This document shows positions 31,366 through 42,899 of a stretch of DNA of 64,000 nucleotides, one piece after another; position 1 is the first letter of the stretch; each line of letters begins with the position of its first letter. The notes under the pieces were generated by a model. It worked only from the letters and a program-made list of their open reading frames with translations. It was not told the origin of the DNA and ran no database searches. Where the stretch lies: the NCBI RefSeq assembly GCF_009914755.1, contig NC_060925.1; one strand, 5' to 3'. Position numbers and translations under genes: made by a program. The stretch comes from the human T2T-CHM13v2.0 reference genome, Homo sapiens.

Positions 31366-31637
31366 ACCGTCTGCTCCCGGCCACCGCTGGCGTCCTCCCC
31401 AGCTCGTCCGCGCCTCCCTCGCCGGGCGCGCCCCTAGCCCCGGCCGGACCCTTCCCGTGGACTCCAGTCCTGGCTCGAGGACACCCGTCCCTAGCGCAGC
31501 CTGCCACCGCTTCCACTCGGGGCCGCCCCGCGGGCCTCCCGGACCCTGGACGGCAATTCGCGGGCGCTCGCGCGGGCAACCCCAGCCCGGAGCCACGACC
31601 GCCGCGGCCGGAGCAAGCGCCACCTCCTCACACTCAC

Positions 31638-31810
31638 CACGGCGCTCCATCTCGCGTGCCGGACGCGGACGCCCGCCCCACACCTACGGCCGCCGCCACC
31701 GCCGAGGGCTGGAGCTCGCTGCCCCCATCCCCCACGGCCTGCGGACGCCCGGCCAAATCTCAGCCGCAGCCGCAGCCGCAGCCACAGCCACAGGCACCAC
31801 CACCACTGCA
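31638..31810 (-). other. ARHGAP29: ARHGAP29 non-coding exon 1 (proximal); 3' end exact, TSS approximate
   Basis: Consensus donor CCGTG|gtgagt at 31638/31637 inside the CpG island, downstream (minus sense) of CCAAT and GC boxes; nearest such exon to the exon 2 acceptor. Confidence 0.75.
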
Positions 31811-31850
31811 GCCGCCACCGCCCCTGCAGCTACCGCCACGGCCGCACCGC
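31761..31850. repeat. (CAGCCG/CAGCCA)n hexamer and (CAC)n low-complexity tract at the proximal TSS/5'UTR
   Basis: cagccgcagccgcagccgcagccacagccacaggcaccaccaccac. Confidence 0.85.
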
Positions 31851-32276
31851 CCGCCCGCCAGCCCCGCCCCCTGGAGCCCAGCCCATTGGCCCGCGCTCCC
31901 GGGGGCGGGGCCGGCGACCGCGGCAGGTACGGGAGGCAACTAGCTCGCGCGCAGAACGCGACCGTCAGTTGCGCGCGGCCGGACGCTGTCCCAGCATCAC
32001 GGGCTGCGTCGGCTGCCCTTTTGGCTTGCAGGGGACAGGCAGAGCGACTCAGAGAAAAGTCACCTGAGGACTAGATGCGGCTAATGGCCAGATGAGCAGC
32101 TACATTTCTTATGAGACACTTCTGTGGATCGCCTTTTTCCTCCCTCTTCCAGGGGTTAGGGCCTGGGGAAGGGCGCCACACGTCTGAATGAAGAATGAAC
32201 TACCTCAAAACCAGCCATCTACTCTGCCCCTCTGCCCTCTATGGAGGGTAATAGTTTCCACTTAGGCCTATCTGTA

Positions 32277-32591
32277 TTTTTTTTTTTTTTTTTTTTTTTT
32301 TTGGAGACGGAGTCTCGCTCTGTCGCCCAGACGAGTCTAATGGCGTGATCTCGGCTCACTGCAACCTCCGCCTCCCGGGCTCAATTGATTCTCCCACCTC
32401 AGCCACCTGAGTAGCTGCGATTATAGGCACCCACTACCACGCCAAGCTAATTTTAGTATTTTTAGTAGAGGCAGGGTTTCGCTATGTTGGCCAAGCTGGT
32501 CTCGAATTCCCGACCTCCCGACCTCAGGTGATCCACCCGCCTCAGCCTCCCAAAGTACTGGGATTACAAGCATGAGCCACTGTGCCCGGTC
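32277..32591 (-). mobile_element. AluS
   Basis: Poly-T then gagacggagtctcgctctgtcgccc; small cccgacct duplication. Confidence 0.9.
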
Positions 32592-38900: not shown

Positions 38901-39790
38901 ATGAATATAGCAAGGTCACAGAATACAAAGTTAATACACTATAATCAATTTTATTTCTATACACTAACAACAAACAATTGAACAAAAAAATTTAAAACTT
39001 CTGCTCTTTGAGAGACAGTGTTGAAATAAAACACAAGCCACAAATTGGGAGAAAATATCTGACAAAGAATTTGTAACCAAATATATCAGGAACTCTTACA
39101 ATTCAATAAAAATAAAACAACAATCCAATAAAATAATGAGTAATGAAGTGAACATATGCTGCACAAAAGAAGATACACAACTGGGCAATAAGCACATGAA
39201 ATATTGCTCAATACCATTAGTATCAGGGAAATGCAAATTTCAACTTCTATGAGATACCACTGAATAGTCAGAAGAAATTTTAATTTCAGCTAGACTGAAA
39301 TACTAAGTGTTGGTGAGGATGTAGGGCAACTGTAACTGTAATACATGCTTCTACATACAAGGTATACAATCACTTTGTGAAACAGCCTGGCAGTTTCTTA
39401 CACAGGAAATGTACATTTAACATACAACCCAGTAATTCTCCTTTTGTATGCATCCAAAAGAAATGAAAACATATATTCACCCCTAAACTTGTATACAAAT
39501 GCATAGCAATTTTTTTCATGATAGTCAAAAACAAAACAACCCAAACTCCATCAACAGATAAACAAACTGTGGTACAGCCTTACGATGGAATACTATTTAA
39601 CATTACATATCCATGACATAGGAAAAAATCATAGATGAATCTCAAAAGCATTAAGCTAAATGAAAGAAGCCAGGCACACACACACTGTATATCTTTGGTA
39701 TGATTCCATTTACATAAAATTCTAGAGAATATGAACCTAATCTTAAATGACAAAAGAATTTCGTTGCCTAGGAATGCAGTGGTGGTGTAG
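35980..39790 (+). mobile_element. Degraded old L1 (L1M-type): 5' region, ORF2 remnants, 3' UTR
   Basis: aaaagctggttctttgaaaagat, ctcattctatgaggccagcattaccctgataccaaaaccagacaaagaca, gatgcagaaaaagcatctgacaaaattc. Confidence 0.85.
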
Positions 39791-41774
39791 GTGTGGGGGA
39801 AATTGCGAGAAGCCTTTCATTTCCTCCACTAAAAATAAAGCATCCCTTTACTTTCCCATAGGATATTCAACATACTTGGGAAACTCACGATATTATACCT
39901 TGGGCCCCATCAATATTGTCTATTGCTACCGAAGATGCAAAGGTTCTACAGGACTGTCTACCACAAAATGGGATCAGACTAAATTTTCTTAGTGAATGCT
40001 GAATGAATAAGTGACACGAGAATGAAAATTCTTTAGGGTGACTTCTGGGCATGAACTTTGTTCAATGTGGTTATACTAACCCCCGGGACCAAGAGCAGTG
40101 GCTATAAAAGCCCATGTTCCTAGGTCAAGAGCCTTTACATGTGAGGAAGTGAAGGTGCTTACAACTGAGGTAGATACACTATTTTAAGGAGGTAAGGGGA
40201 GCAGTAATGACCAACCACTATACATTCTTGGGCAGCGCTTTTCTACATCTCAGCCAAAGTTCTATTTCCTGCCAAATTGGGGACTAAAACATTTTCTACT
40301 CAGGCCTATTCTATTTTCTTCAAGTTCACTCTTAAACTCTTCTCAGAATCATCAGACAAGAACTGTATACATACTGTAAAGCTCATGAAGCTTAAGCATC
40401 AGGGTTGCTTACTTACACAGTTCCTGTAACAAGGAGGCATTTTGAAATAAGCATTTCTGGCAAACTGCGTAAAGAAATCACTACAGAAAGGGACCTAATC
40501 TCCAAGACTCCCATAATTTTGTTGTGATTCACTCATTCTGAATATTCACTTTCATATCTAATTTTGAAGTATTTTTCTTGAAAGGGGAATCTCCTCTCCC
40601 AAACTGAATGAGGAGGAAGCGAAGCTAATTCCCAAAGATTAATAAAGAAAAAGGTAAATGTAGAACAAAAAGGTACTTAGAACTTTCATAAAACATCTCC
40701 TAACATTCCCCTTCCCCCCGCCAACCCCTCCATCCCCCGCCCAAAAAAGATCCATCTTTAGAAAACAGAGGATGTCAAAGATCCAAAAAAAACAATGTGG
40801 AACGCCACCCTTGGTTTTTAAAGAGGGGTGGTGGTGGTGAAAAGGTGAGATAAACTAGGACAAATCAGAGGGGCTGAAAGACAAGGGAGGAACGTCCTTG
40901 GCTGCTCTGTTTAAACCAAGGCAAGATCCTCCCTGGGAACACCGGGTTTCTATCACAGACCGGGTCCTGGGACACCTAGTGAAACAAACGCACAGGGGTC
41001 CGCTCTCTAGGTGGTAGATGCAATCTCCCAGCTTGTCCCTTCCTATTTTGCAGAGCACACGACTTGCCCTAGAGCCATGGCTGGGAAAAGGTGGAAGGGC
41101 GAGACCAGGCAGTAATGAGTGGGGAGAGAGAAGGGGAGGAGTAGGGTGGGAGGGAACGACAGAGACGCTCCAGAAGGGGCACACGGTGAGAATGCGCAAG
41201 ACGGTGTTTTACAACCTTAGATCTCCCTCCCCCAAAGTAATAAATAGCCAGGGTCTAGGTGAGGTGAAGTGCAATAAGAAAAAGTAAATATGGAACATGA
41301 GATGTCTGTTTTACTCAGCCTTTGCATGTGTCAGACTGAAATTTCAGAAAACGTCACCAAACTTCCAAAAAGCATCCCCAGTAAGAAAGACGGACTTGAG
41401 ACCCGGTGAAGAAAACCAATGGGGTAAGGGTAAAGGAGCCCCTGAATTCCGCAGTGAGGCGATGAGGGCTGGTGGCTAGCAAAGGGAGCGGGGCTGAGAC
41501 ACGCTCGGGGAGTCCTATAAGGGGAGGAAAGTCCACCCGGCCAGCTTCTCCCCTGCTGCCCGCCGGCGTCACACAACTCAGAGCGCGCACCCGGGGTCCG
41601 CGGCGTACCGGCAGCGCCCGCCCGCGTCCTCTCGCTCGTCCGCGCCTGCCTCGCCGGGCGCGCCCCTAGCCCCTGCCGGACCCTGGACGGCAACTAGCCG
41701 GCGCCCGCGCGGGCGACCCCAGCCCGGAGCCACCACCGCCGCGGCCGAAGCGAGCGCCACCTCCTCACACTCAC

Positions 41775-41950
41775 CACGGCGCTCCATCCCGCGTCCCGGA
41801 CGCGGACGGCCGCCCCACACCTACGGCCGCCGCCACCGCCGAGGGCTGGAGCTCGCCGCCCCCATCCCCCACGGCCCGCAGACGCCCGGCCAAGTGGCAG
41901 CCGCAGCCACAGACACCACCACCACCACCACCACAGCGGCCGCCGCCTTT
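41775..41950 (-). other. Putative alternative (distal) first exon of ARHGAP29
   Basis: Same donor CCGTG|gtgagt and same uATG as proximal exon 1; transcription not demonstrable from sequence alone. Confidence 0.55.
41898..41950. repeat. Paralogous tract in distal copy: fewer hexamers, longer (CAC)n
   Basis: cagccgcagccacagacaccaccaccaccaccaccacag. Confidence 0.85.
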
Positions 41951-42899
41951 GCAGCTACCGCCACGGCTGCGCCGGCCGCCTGCCCCGCCCCTTGGAGCCC
42001 AGCCCATTGGCCTGGCCCGCGCTCCCGGGGGGCGGGGTCGGCGACCGCGGCAGGTTGGGGCGGCTGCTCGCTCGCGCGCAGAACGCGGCGGTCAGCTGCG
42101 CCCGGCCTGAAGTTGTCCCAACCGCGGCCGCGTCGGTCGCCCTTTTGACTTGCAGCAGGGCGGGCAGAGCGACTTAGAGGAAAAGTGACTTTTTGTACCC
42201 TCCTGCAGGGAGCAGGTTCTCTGTCCTTGTTTAATTAGACATTTCTCAGGTGGGCACTTTGAATTCCTTCCAGTCAAGACTCAGGTGTTCAACTTGTTTT
42301 GTCGGCCGTCTTCCTCCACCCTTCTTCTCCCATTCAAAACAAAAGTACGTTTTGTGCTTAACTTTAAAACTCCCCCCACTCTTTTCTGTCTTCAACTGAT
42401 TGTCACTTTCAGCAAACCAAATAAATTACTCAAAACATCAGCTATTATACAGTCCCCGACACATGGCAGGTGCTCAGTAGATGCTAGTTGATCGCATGTC
42501 CCCTAACCACGCTACCTGCTTCTTACCATTAAGTGCTCCTTCAGTCATGGGACTGATCAACACGGTGGAGGAAGCCGCAACCAAAATAAAACATTTATCT
42601 AGATGTTGGATCACACATCATATCATGTATGGAGGAAAACAAAACACTGCATTTATATATAATATATATTAGTAACACTTACCAACTCTACTAAGAATAC
42701 CTTTCCTGTCACCTGTGCTGACACATAAGCACTCCATGAATATTAGCTGATTAATGGGTAAAATTATGGAAAGGGAATTTGGAAAAATCACTTAATGGCA
42801 TCTTCCCTTTAAATATTTTTCAAAAAGATTAAATATCTGTCATATTCTTCACCCTTCTTCGTTAGGAGAAATATATTTGAAAACATTGTCAAAGGAAGA

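What the first reader, a model, noticed from the sequence alone, without database searches (positions are those of the whole stretch)
31400..42190. Twin promoters: the ARHGAP29 CpG island and exon 1 are duplicated 10,137 bp upstream with functional signals intact
Seen: 31400-32065 and 41630-42190 are direct paralogues. The core 31539-31760 vs 41676-41897 aligns without gaps with 17/222 mismatches (~92%). Both keep two GC boxes, the CCAAT box, the donor CCGTG|gtgagt, the uATG 13 nt before the donor, and a high CpG content. Similarity stops at the island edges; the flanks (Alu, L1, MER20) are unrelated. Inference: a methylated dead copy would have lost CpGs, so the distal copy is probably an unmethylated, active alternative promoter making a near-identical 5'UTR, or a bidirectional promoter/enhancer. 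Near-identical first exons would be confused in short-read, array and CRISPRi/a assays. ARHGAP29 is an established cleft lip/palate gene, so dosage control matters.
Basis: partly seen in the sequence, partly recalled or inferred. Interest (0 to 1): 0.85.

Follow-up and report, generated by a model that had tools for sequence, protein, structure and literature searches.

The report
Duplicated ARHGAP29 promoter and first exon
The CpG-island promoter and non-coding first exon of the cleft-lip gene ARHGAP29 exist as two roughly 90% identical copies 10 kb apart, and the upstream copy is already annotated as a second promoter that also starts an antisense RNA, so this is a real but ordinary kind of feature.

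Summary
The duplication is real. Window 31384-32063 and 41618-42189 align at 504 of 562 aligned positions (89.7%). They have the same orientation and lie 10,137 bp apart. The edges are sharp, the flanks score no better than shuffles, and the T2T genome holds only these two copies.

The block carries about 250 bp of core promoter, non-coding exon 1 and the start of intron 1 of ARHGAP29.

Both copies are CpG islands (observed/expected 0.96 and 1.00). Transitions at CpG sites are no more frequent than elsewhere (0.054 vs 0.058 per site). This argues that neither copy has been methylated in the germ line since the duplication.

- RefSeq lists an ARHGAP29 first exon at 41775-41956 that ends at the paralogous donor.
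- ARHGAP29-AS1 starts 73-120 bp away on the other strand, so the distal copy is a bidirectional alternative promoter.
- Both 5' exons keep two upstream ORFs that encode identical peptides.

The assay-confusion claim holds only in part. It holds for Cas9 guides (17 of 183 have perfect twins) and for bisulfite probes (a 70-nt identical run). It fails for native reads of 50 nt or more (0 shared 50-mers).

My literature searches found no description of the paralogy. I could not examine expression, methylation or cross-species data. This is a known kind of feature and a useful note on the locus.

The parts
31384..32063 (-). Proximal copy of the duplicated block (680 bp): start of intron 1, exon 1 of NM_004815.4 and about 250 bp of core promoter. 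GC 75.9%, 90 CpG, o/e 0.96.
41618..42189 (-). Distal copy of the duplicated block (572 bp), 10,137 bp upstream with respect to the gene. GC 76.7%, 82 CpG, o/e 1.00.
31638..31807 (-). Exon 1A (170 nt, non-coding) of the selected transcript. Donor CCGTG|GTGAGT.
   Evidence: hub annotation; sequence
41775..41956 (-). Exon 1B (182 nt, non-coding), listed as an 'exon of other transcripts'. Same donor. No AG acceptor upstream, so it is a first exon.
   Evidence: hub annotation
31440..31534 (.). 95-bp stretch present only in the proximal copy, bounded by the 9-bp repeat CCGGACCCT. Most simply a microhomology-mediated deletion in the distal copy.
   Evidence: sequence
31856..31916 (.). Proximal core promoter: a 61-nt imperfect palindrome (30-nt arms, 83% complementary) of GC box, CCAAT box, GC box.
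41967..42053 (.). Distal core promoter: the same GC box, CCAAT, GC box module. Arms are 25 nt, 80% complementary, 37 nt apart. It lies between the exon 1B start site and the AS1 start sites.
31684..31728 (-). uORF1 in exon 1A, encoding MGAASSSPRRWRRP*.
41821..41865 (-). uORF1 in exon 1B. The peptide is identical.
31638..31650 (-). Start of uORF2 in exon 1A (ATG 13 nt before the donor). It runs into exon 2 and encodes MERRGFQFF*.
41775..41787 (-). Start of uORF2 in exon 1B. The peptide is identical once spliced to exon 2.
   Evidence: splice to exon 2 assumed
42029..42344 (+). First exons of ARHGAP29-AS1. Starts at 42029-42076 lie inside the duplicated block. Donors at 42249 and 42344 lie outside it.
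   Evidence: hub annotation
32064..41617 (.). 9,554-bp spacer, CpG-poor (o/e 0.28). It holds two Alus (32278-32590, 35553-36004) and old dispersed repeats (about 35180-35375, 36843-38723, 38987-39755).

Best explanation
A block of about 0.6-0.7 kb was copied once within the ARHGAP29 locus. It holds the core CpG-island promoter, the non-coding first exon and the first 150-250 bp of intron 1. Both copies now act as promoters of the same gene. Each starts a non-coding first exon that ends at the same donor and, by inference, splices to the common exon 2. The protein is therefore unchanged and the two 5'UTRs are nearly the same, including two upstream ORFs. The core of each promoter is a near-palindromic module of GC box, CCAAT box and GC box, the type that fires in both directions. 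At the distal copy the upstream-antisense direction has become the annotated lncRNA ARHGAP29-AS1. What is shown: the duplication, its limits, its uniqueness in the genome, retention of signals and CpGs, and the position of annotated start sites relative to the block. What is inferred: germ-line hypomethylation of both copies, splicing of exon 1B to exon 2, the relative use of the two promoters, and the age and mode of the duplication. My best guess is a single interspersed copy into pre-existing DNA some tens of millions of years ago.
For: Duplication and limits. Only two copies in the assembly. CpG islands of 930 and 900 bp by the GC >= 0.55, o/e >= 0.65 criteria, in a window whose overall o/e is 0.28. 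No methylation-type decay: 65 of 77 aligned CpGs kept, 10 of 58 substitutions are CpG transitions, and the transition rate is 0.054 per CpG site vs 0.058 per non-CpG site (Fisher p = 1.0). Same donor, same two uORF peptides and the same GC and CCAAT boxes. Exon 1B and the AS1 starts come from the hub's RefSeq table, and the lack of an AG acceptor at 41957-41958 is seen. The palindromic core exceeds composition in both copies (0 of 200 shuffles reach it). The shared part of the exon is the best conserved (112 of 118 = 94.9% vs 392 of 444 = 88.3% elsewhere, Fisher p = 0.04). One paper (PMC5355807, passages read) anchored its 3C assay at the 'ARHGAP29 (NM_001328667.1) promoter' and says an EcoRI site lies less than 500 bp from the start site. 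In this assembly the nearest upstream EcoRI site is 305 bp from the distal start, 697 bp from the proximal start and 516 bp from the far-upstream start at 69270. This fits the distal promoter best, though only as an inference. Spacer repeats match their genomic relatives at only 65-81%, while the two blocks match at 90%. This suggests the spacer is older than the duplication.
Against: I could not look at any transcript-level, CAGE, chromatin or methylation data, so activity of the distal promoter for ARHGAP29 rests on RefSeq models. The hub does not say whether those models are curated or predicted. The hub's table lists RefSeq 'silencer' elements over both islands, which on its face does not speak for promoter strength, and I could not see the underlying assay. 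The partner exon of exon 1B is not given in the table. CpG retention shows the germ-line state, not somatic activity. The extra conservation of the exon is weak (p = 0.04, one test). The age estimate (JC distance 0.111 +/- 0.015, giving 25-111 My across assumed rates of 2.2e-9 to 0.5e-9 per site per year) is unreliable if selection or gene conversion acts. The spacer was not shown to be wholly repeat-derived or wholly older.
Confidence: 0.8

Rival explanations
1. The distal island is in practice the promoter of the lncRNA ARHGAP29-AS1. Its ARHGAP29-sense exon 1B transcripts are a minor by-product of bidirectional firing, and nearly all ARHGAP29 mRNA comes from the proximal promoter.
For: The selected RefSeq transcript uses the proximal exon. 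The hub lists five different AS1 start positions at the distal island (42029, 42034, 42068, 42074, 42076) but one ARHGAP29 exon there. CpG retention would be explained equally well by AS1 promoter activity.
Against: Exon 1B keeps the exact donor and both uORFs, and the shared exon part is the best-conserved segment. The EcoRI distances fit the 3C anchor of PMC5355807 being the distal promoter. None of this measures usage.
Confidence: 0.25
2. The duplication is much older than 90% identity suggests. The two islands are kept alike by gene conversion (concerted evolution), and the sharp edges are the limits of conversion tracts.
For: The edges are sharp and the block length of about 0.6 kb is in the range of conversion tracts. 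About 200 bp of unrelated CpG-rich sequence flanks each block on the intron side, as if each site were an island in its own right. Both copies are GC-rich, as expected under biased conversion.
Against: Mismatches are spread along the whole block. The longest identical run is 47 nt, and my own hand calculation, not a tool call, gives about 37 nt as the expected longest run for 562 sites at 10% divergence. So there is no sign of a recent tract. Several indels have accumulated, including the 95-bp one. One genome cannot decide this.
Confidence: 0.2
3. The distal copy is an inert duplicate or a chance resemblance between GC-rich sequences.
For: Nothing beyond the general point that GC-rich low-complexity DNA gives spurious matches. 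The triplet-repeat part does hit other chromosomes weakly.
Against: Alignment score 359 against a shuffle maximum of 27. CpG o/e 1.00 and no excess of CpG transitions. Annotated start sites lie on both strands (hub table).
Confidence: 0.03

Closest known systems
Genes with paralogous alternative first exons, each behind its own promoter and spliced to common downstream exons (the 'variable first exon' arrangement of the clustered protocadherins and UGT1A; recalled, not from a call)
   Same: Locus-internal duplication of promoter plus first exon. Each copy has its own start site and the same type of donor, and joins common downstream exons.
   Different: There are only two copies, the exon is non-coding so the protein does not vary, and the copies are 10 kb apart with unrelated sequence between them rather than in a regular array.
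Bidirectional CpG-island promoters with CCAAT and GC boxes (head-to-head start sites less than 1 kb apart; definition recalled)
   Same: At the distal copy, annotated start sites on opposite strands lie 73-120 bp apart, with a CCAAT box and two GC boxes between or at them. The module is near-palindromic.
   Different: The proximal copy has the same module but no annotated antisense partner. The partner here is a lncRNA, not a protein-coding gene.
Segmental duplications as usually catalogued (at least 1 kb and at least 90% identity; definition recalled)
   Same: An intrachromosomal direct duplication at about 90% identity.
   Different: At 572-680 bp it falls below the length threshold, so such catalogues would not list it.

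Membership tests
CpG island | At least 500 bp (or 200 bp) with GC >= 55% (or 50%) and CpG observed/expected >= 0.65 (or 0.6) | tested here: met
   Islands at 31231-32160 (930 bp, GC 68.9%, o/e 0.97) and 41391-42290 (900 bp, GC 70.3%, o/e 0.92). The only other stretches in the window that pass are two of 300-310 bp, both at positions that match Alus.
Bidirectional promoter | Two start sites on opposite strands, head to head, less than 1 kb apart | tested here: met
   Distal copy only, from the hub's RefSeq table: 41956 (-) and 42029-42076 (+). The proximal copy has no annotated antisense start, so the feature is not met there on present annotation.
Bidirectional promoter | Divergent transcription actually observed | not testable with these tools
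   No CAGE, GRO-seq or RNA-seq data were available.
Duplicated alternative first exons | Paralogous first exons, each preceded by its own promoter sequence | tested here: met
   The block includes about 250 bp upstream of each exon at 85-89% identity, with GC and CCAAT boxes kept.
Duplicated alternative first exons | Each first exon splices to the same downstream exon | tested here: inconclusive
   The donors are identical and the exon is assigned to ARHGAP29 by RefSeq, but the hub table does not give the splice partner of 41775-41956.
Duplicated alternative first exons | First exons encode variable protein parts (as in PCDH and UGT1A) | tested here: not met
   Coding starts in exon 2 at 25823. 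Both first exons hold only short uORFs that stop before it.
Segmental duplication (catalogue definition) | Length at least 1 kb | tested here: not met
   680 and 572 bp, and the flanks score as shuffles do.
Retrocopy / processed copy | Derived from a spliced RNA: no promoter or intron sequence, and a poly(A) tail | tested here: not met
   The copy contains sequence upstream of the start site and 157 bp of intron past the donor. No A-run is seen at either edge.

The most novel reading that the evidence does not exclude
The promoter duplication did two things. First, it gave a dosage-sensitive craniofacial gene a redundant 'shadow' promoter with its own regulatory inputs. Rare variants or deletions at the distal island would then be unscreened candidates in cleft families. 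Second, it gave birth to the lncRNA ARHGAP29-AS1. The copied module fires in both directions by design. In its new surroundings the antisense direction met usable splice donors at 42249 and 42344, before the first poly(A) signal at 42420. At the original site the first comparable donor outside the block lies in an Alu at 32527.
Probability: 0.2. Interest if true: 0.55.

Novelty: new member of a known kind. Interest (0 to 1): 0.3.

Why it matters
ARHGAP29 is a cleft lip/palate gene in which loss of one copy is thought to matter, so knowing that it has two sequence-related promoters has four practical uses.
1. Promoter screens and 3C/4C viewpoints must say which promoter they mean. One published 3C anchor seems to be the distal one.
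2. CRISPRi/a guides chosen in either island often hit both. 17 of 183 proximal guides have a perfect twin and 75 of 183 have a twin within 2 mismatches.
3. Bisulfite-converted 50-mer probes can cross-hybridise, because after conversion there is a 70-nt identical run.
4. The pair is a small natural experiment on how a duplicated CpG-island promoter stays unmethylated and acquires a lncRNA partner.
None of this changes the known biology of the gene.

Tried and rejected
- **Wider homology.** I looked for a larger tandem unit with sensitive blastn (word 7) of both islands +/-1.5 kb against the window. It found only Alus beyond the block. Smith-Waterman alignment of the flanks scored the same as shuffles. 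A larger duplication is rejected.
- **Further copies.** A whole-genome search found none.
- **Spacer made only of later transposon insertions** (which would imply an originally adjacent tandem duplication). Four genome searches mapped repeats to about 4 kb of the 9.55-kb spacer. Each search scored only 40 candidates and I had no transposon library, so the rest is undetermined. The idea is neither shown nor excluded.
- **U1 donor versus poly(A) signals on the antisense side of both copies**. The counts are too similar to be decisive.
- **RNA folding of the two first exons.** Exon 1A folds at -91.2 kcal/mol with z = -0.25. Exon 1B folds at -109.7 kcal/mol with z = -2.76 (2 of 200 shuffles fold as well). 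Both are stable because they are GC-rich, and I see no convincing shared structure beyond composition.
- **Rfam over 30000-44000.** 0 matches.
- **Literature.** Searches for ARHGAP29 with 'alternative promoter' (3 papers), 'ARHGAP29-AS1' (1), 'promoter' plus 'CpG island' (20), 'transcription start site' (37, 15 listed), 'uORF' (0) and 'bidirectional promoter' (2) turned up nothing on the duplication in the titles and abstracts listed. I read passages of three papers: PMC11844571, PMC5355807 and PMC10935147. General searches for duplicated first exons or promoters gave nothing relevant. A search on transcript accessions gave 6 papers, none about first-exon use judging by title and abstract.
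Full report
**Observation**

The two stretches are paralogues beyond doubt. The repeat finder reports a 274-nt direct repeat (31518-31791 and 41655-41928, 89% identity, spacing 10137) with collinear shorter families on both sides. The best ungapped match of that 222-mer elsewhere on the + strand of the window is 85 of 222.

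A gapped global alignment of 31384-32063 with 41618-42189 has 504 matches and 58 mismatches over 562 aligned columns (89.7%). The proximal copy has one large block of its own, 95 bp at 31440-31534. Small indels fall mostly in the triplet/hexamer repeats of the exon. The 95-bp block is bounded by the 9-bp repeat CCGGACCCT, so a microhomology-mediated deletion in the distal copy is the simplest account (inference).

The edges are sharp. The blocks score 359 in local alignment against a shuffle maximum of 27. The 500-bp left flanks and the right flanks score 11, as shuffles do. Sensitive blastn finds nothing but Alus beyond the block.

The whole assembly holds no third copy. Apart from the two blocks, the hits are three short matches on other chromosomes (58-83 query positions, 78-82% identity) in the triplet-repeat part, and the block's own palindrome.

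**What the block contains**

ARHGAP29 lies on the minus strand. By the hub's table, exon 1 of the selected transcript is 31638-31807. The proximal block therefore runs from 254 bp inside intron 1, through the 170-nt non-coding exon, to 256 bp upstream of the start site. The distal block covers the homologous parts.

Identity is highest in the shared part of the exon (112 of 118, 94.9%). It falls to 91-93% in the intron part, 89% in the core promoter and 85% further upstream. Exon against the rest gives Fisher p = 0.04, which is a weak signal.

Both copies keep the following:
- the donor CCGTG|GTGAGT;
- the GC boxes at 31862 and 31902, and at 41983 and 42029;
- the CCAAT box on the gene strand at 31885 and 42006.

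The core promoter is a near-palindrome of GC box, CCAAT box and GC box. The proximal copy has 30-nt arms at 83% complementarity, and the distal copy has 25-nt arms at 80%. In both, 0 of 200 shuffles reach the observed complementarity.

I spliced each first exon in silico to exon 2. The splice is annotated for 1A and assumed for 1B. The resulting 5'UTRs are 202 and 214 nt long, with the same three upstream ATGs. The first two open uORFs that encode identical peptides, MGAASSSPRRWRRP and MERRGFQFF.

**Methylation history read from the sequence**

Both sites pass strict CpG-island criteria (930 bp at o/e 0.97, and 900 bp at o/e 0.92). The window as a whole has o/e 0.28. Within the blocks the o/e is 0.96 and 1.00.

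Of 77 proximal CpGs in aligned columns, 65 are CpG in the distal copy. Of 58 substitutions, 10 are transitions in a CpG context. Per site, transitions number 0.054 at CpG positions and 0.058 elsewhere.

Methylated CpGs mutate by transition roughly ten times faster than other sites (established knowledge). Neither copy can therefore have been methylated in the germ line for any large part of the time since the duplication. It concerns the germ line only.

**Function**

Its 3' end is the paralogous donor. The two bases upstream of it do not read AG on the gene strand, so it is a first exon with its start at 41956.

ARHGAP29-AS1 models start at 42029, 42034, 42068, 42074 and 42076 on the + strand. 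These positions are inside the duplicated block and 73-120 bp from 41956, with the CCAAT box between them. The AS1 donors at 42249 and 42344 lie outside the block. The distal copy is therefore an annotated bidirectional promoter. The proximal copy has the same module but no annotated antisense partner.

A third ARHGAP29 start, at 69270 outside the window, lies in CpG-poor DNA and is unrelated to the block.

One paper anchored its 3C assay at the 'ARHGAP29 (NM_001328667.1) promoter' and states that an EcoRI site lies less than 500 bp from the start site (PMC5355807, passages read). In this assembly the nearest upstream EcoRI sites are 305 bp from the distal start, 697 bp from the proximal start and 516 bp from the far-upstream start. 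The distal promoter fits best.

The table also lists RefSeq 'silencer' elements over both islands. I could not see the experiment behind them and draw nothing from them, except that both copies were scored alike.

**Origin and age (inference)**

The Jukes-Cantor distance is 0.111 +/- 0.015. This gives 25 to 111 million years for assumed rates of 2.2e-9 to 0.5e-9 per site per year. Selection or gene conversion would make the true age greater.

The spacer holds two Alus and several dispersed repeats that match their genomic relatives at only 65-81%. That is more diverged than the two blocks are from each other. It suggests the block was copied into pre-existing DNA 10 kb away, rather than duplicated side by side and later pushed apart. 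Only about 4 kb of the 9.55-kb spacer could be assigned to repeats, and family names could not be checked, so this stays open.

About 200 bp of unrelated CpG-rich sequence adjoins each block on the intron side. I cannot explain this. It is one reason to keep gene conversion between older islands as a rival explanation.

**Assay confusion**

The copies share 0 of 631 50-mers, and the longest identical run is 47 nt. Native reads of 50 nt or more can therefore be told apart.

They share 42 of 658 23-mers. 17 of 183 proximal SpCas9 guides have a perfect twin in the distal copy, and 75 of 183 have one within two mismatches. After full bisulfite conversion the longest identical run grows to 70 nt on one strand and 54 nt on the other.

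**Comparison with known kinds, and novelty**

This is a two-copy, non-coding version of the duplicated alternative-first-exon arrangement, combined with a standard bidirectional CpG-island promoter. At 572-680 bp it falls below the usual 1-kb cut-off of segmental-duplication catalogues. It is not a retrocopy, because it carries promoter and intron sequence.

The alternative exon and the lncRNA are already annotated. None of my searches found the paralogy of the two promoters in print. For most of those papers I saw only listings, and I read passages of three papers.

I rate it a new member of a known kind, of modest interest and mainly practical value for work on this cleft locus.

**Limits**

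No expression, chromatin, methylation, population or cross-species data could be consulted. The notes of earlier readers were closed.

Noticed in passing
window 31440-31534: A 95-bp stretch is present only in the proximal copy and is bounded by the 9-bp direct repeat CCGGACCCT. It looks like a microhomology-mediated deletion in the distal copy.
   Followed up: partly
window 31756-31807 and 41893-41935: The 5' parts of both first exons are triplet/hexamer repeats whose copy numbers differ between the paralogues: (GGT)n, and GGCTGC/GGCTGT units on the gene strand. These are likely length-polymorphic 5'UTR microsatellites, and they are the only part of the block that weakly hits other chromosomes.
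   Followed up: no
L008 about 5270 (window coordinate 69270): The far-upstream end of the ARHGAP29 gene span is a third start site in CpG-poor DNA (o/e 0.16 in its 500-bp window). It is unrelated to the duplicated island. An EcoRI site lies 516 bp upstream of it.
   Followed up: partly
window 32793-34263: A purine-rich tract (GC skew up to 0.51 and AT skew up to 0.56 on the + strand) with an internal 60%-identical self-match, 32793-33447 vs 33661-34263. It lies in the spacer just upstream of the proximal promoter. Its nature is unknown.
   Followed up: no
window 31184-31383 and 41418-41617: About 200 bp of CpG-rich sequence (o/e 1.02 and 0.78) adjoins each duplicated block on the intron side, yet the two stretches are unrelated to each other. 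This is unexplained.
   Followed up: partly
window 41775-41956 (-): Exon 1B RNA folds more stably than its shuffles (-109.7 kcal/mol, z = -2.76, 2 of 200 shuffles fold as well). Exon 1A does not (z = -0.25).
   Followed up: no
window 36581-41423 (+): The hub table lists a 4.8-kb ARHGAP29-AS1 exon that fills much of the spacer between the two islands and runs over the old L1-like repeat at 36843-38723. It ends about 200 bp before the distal block.
   Followed up: no
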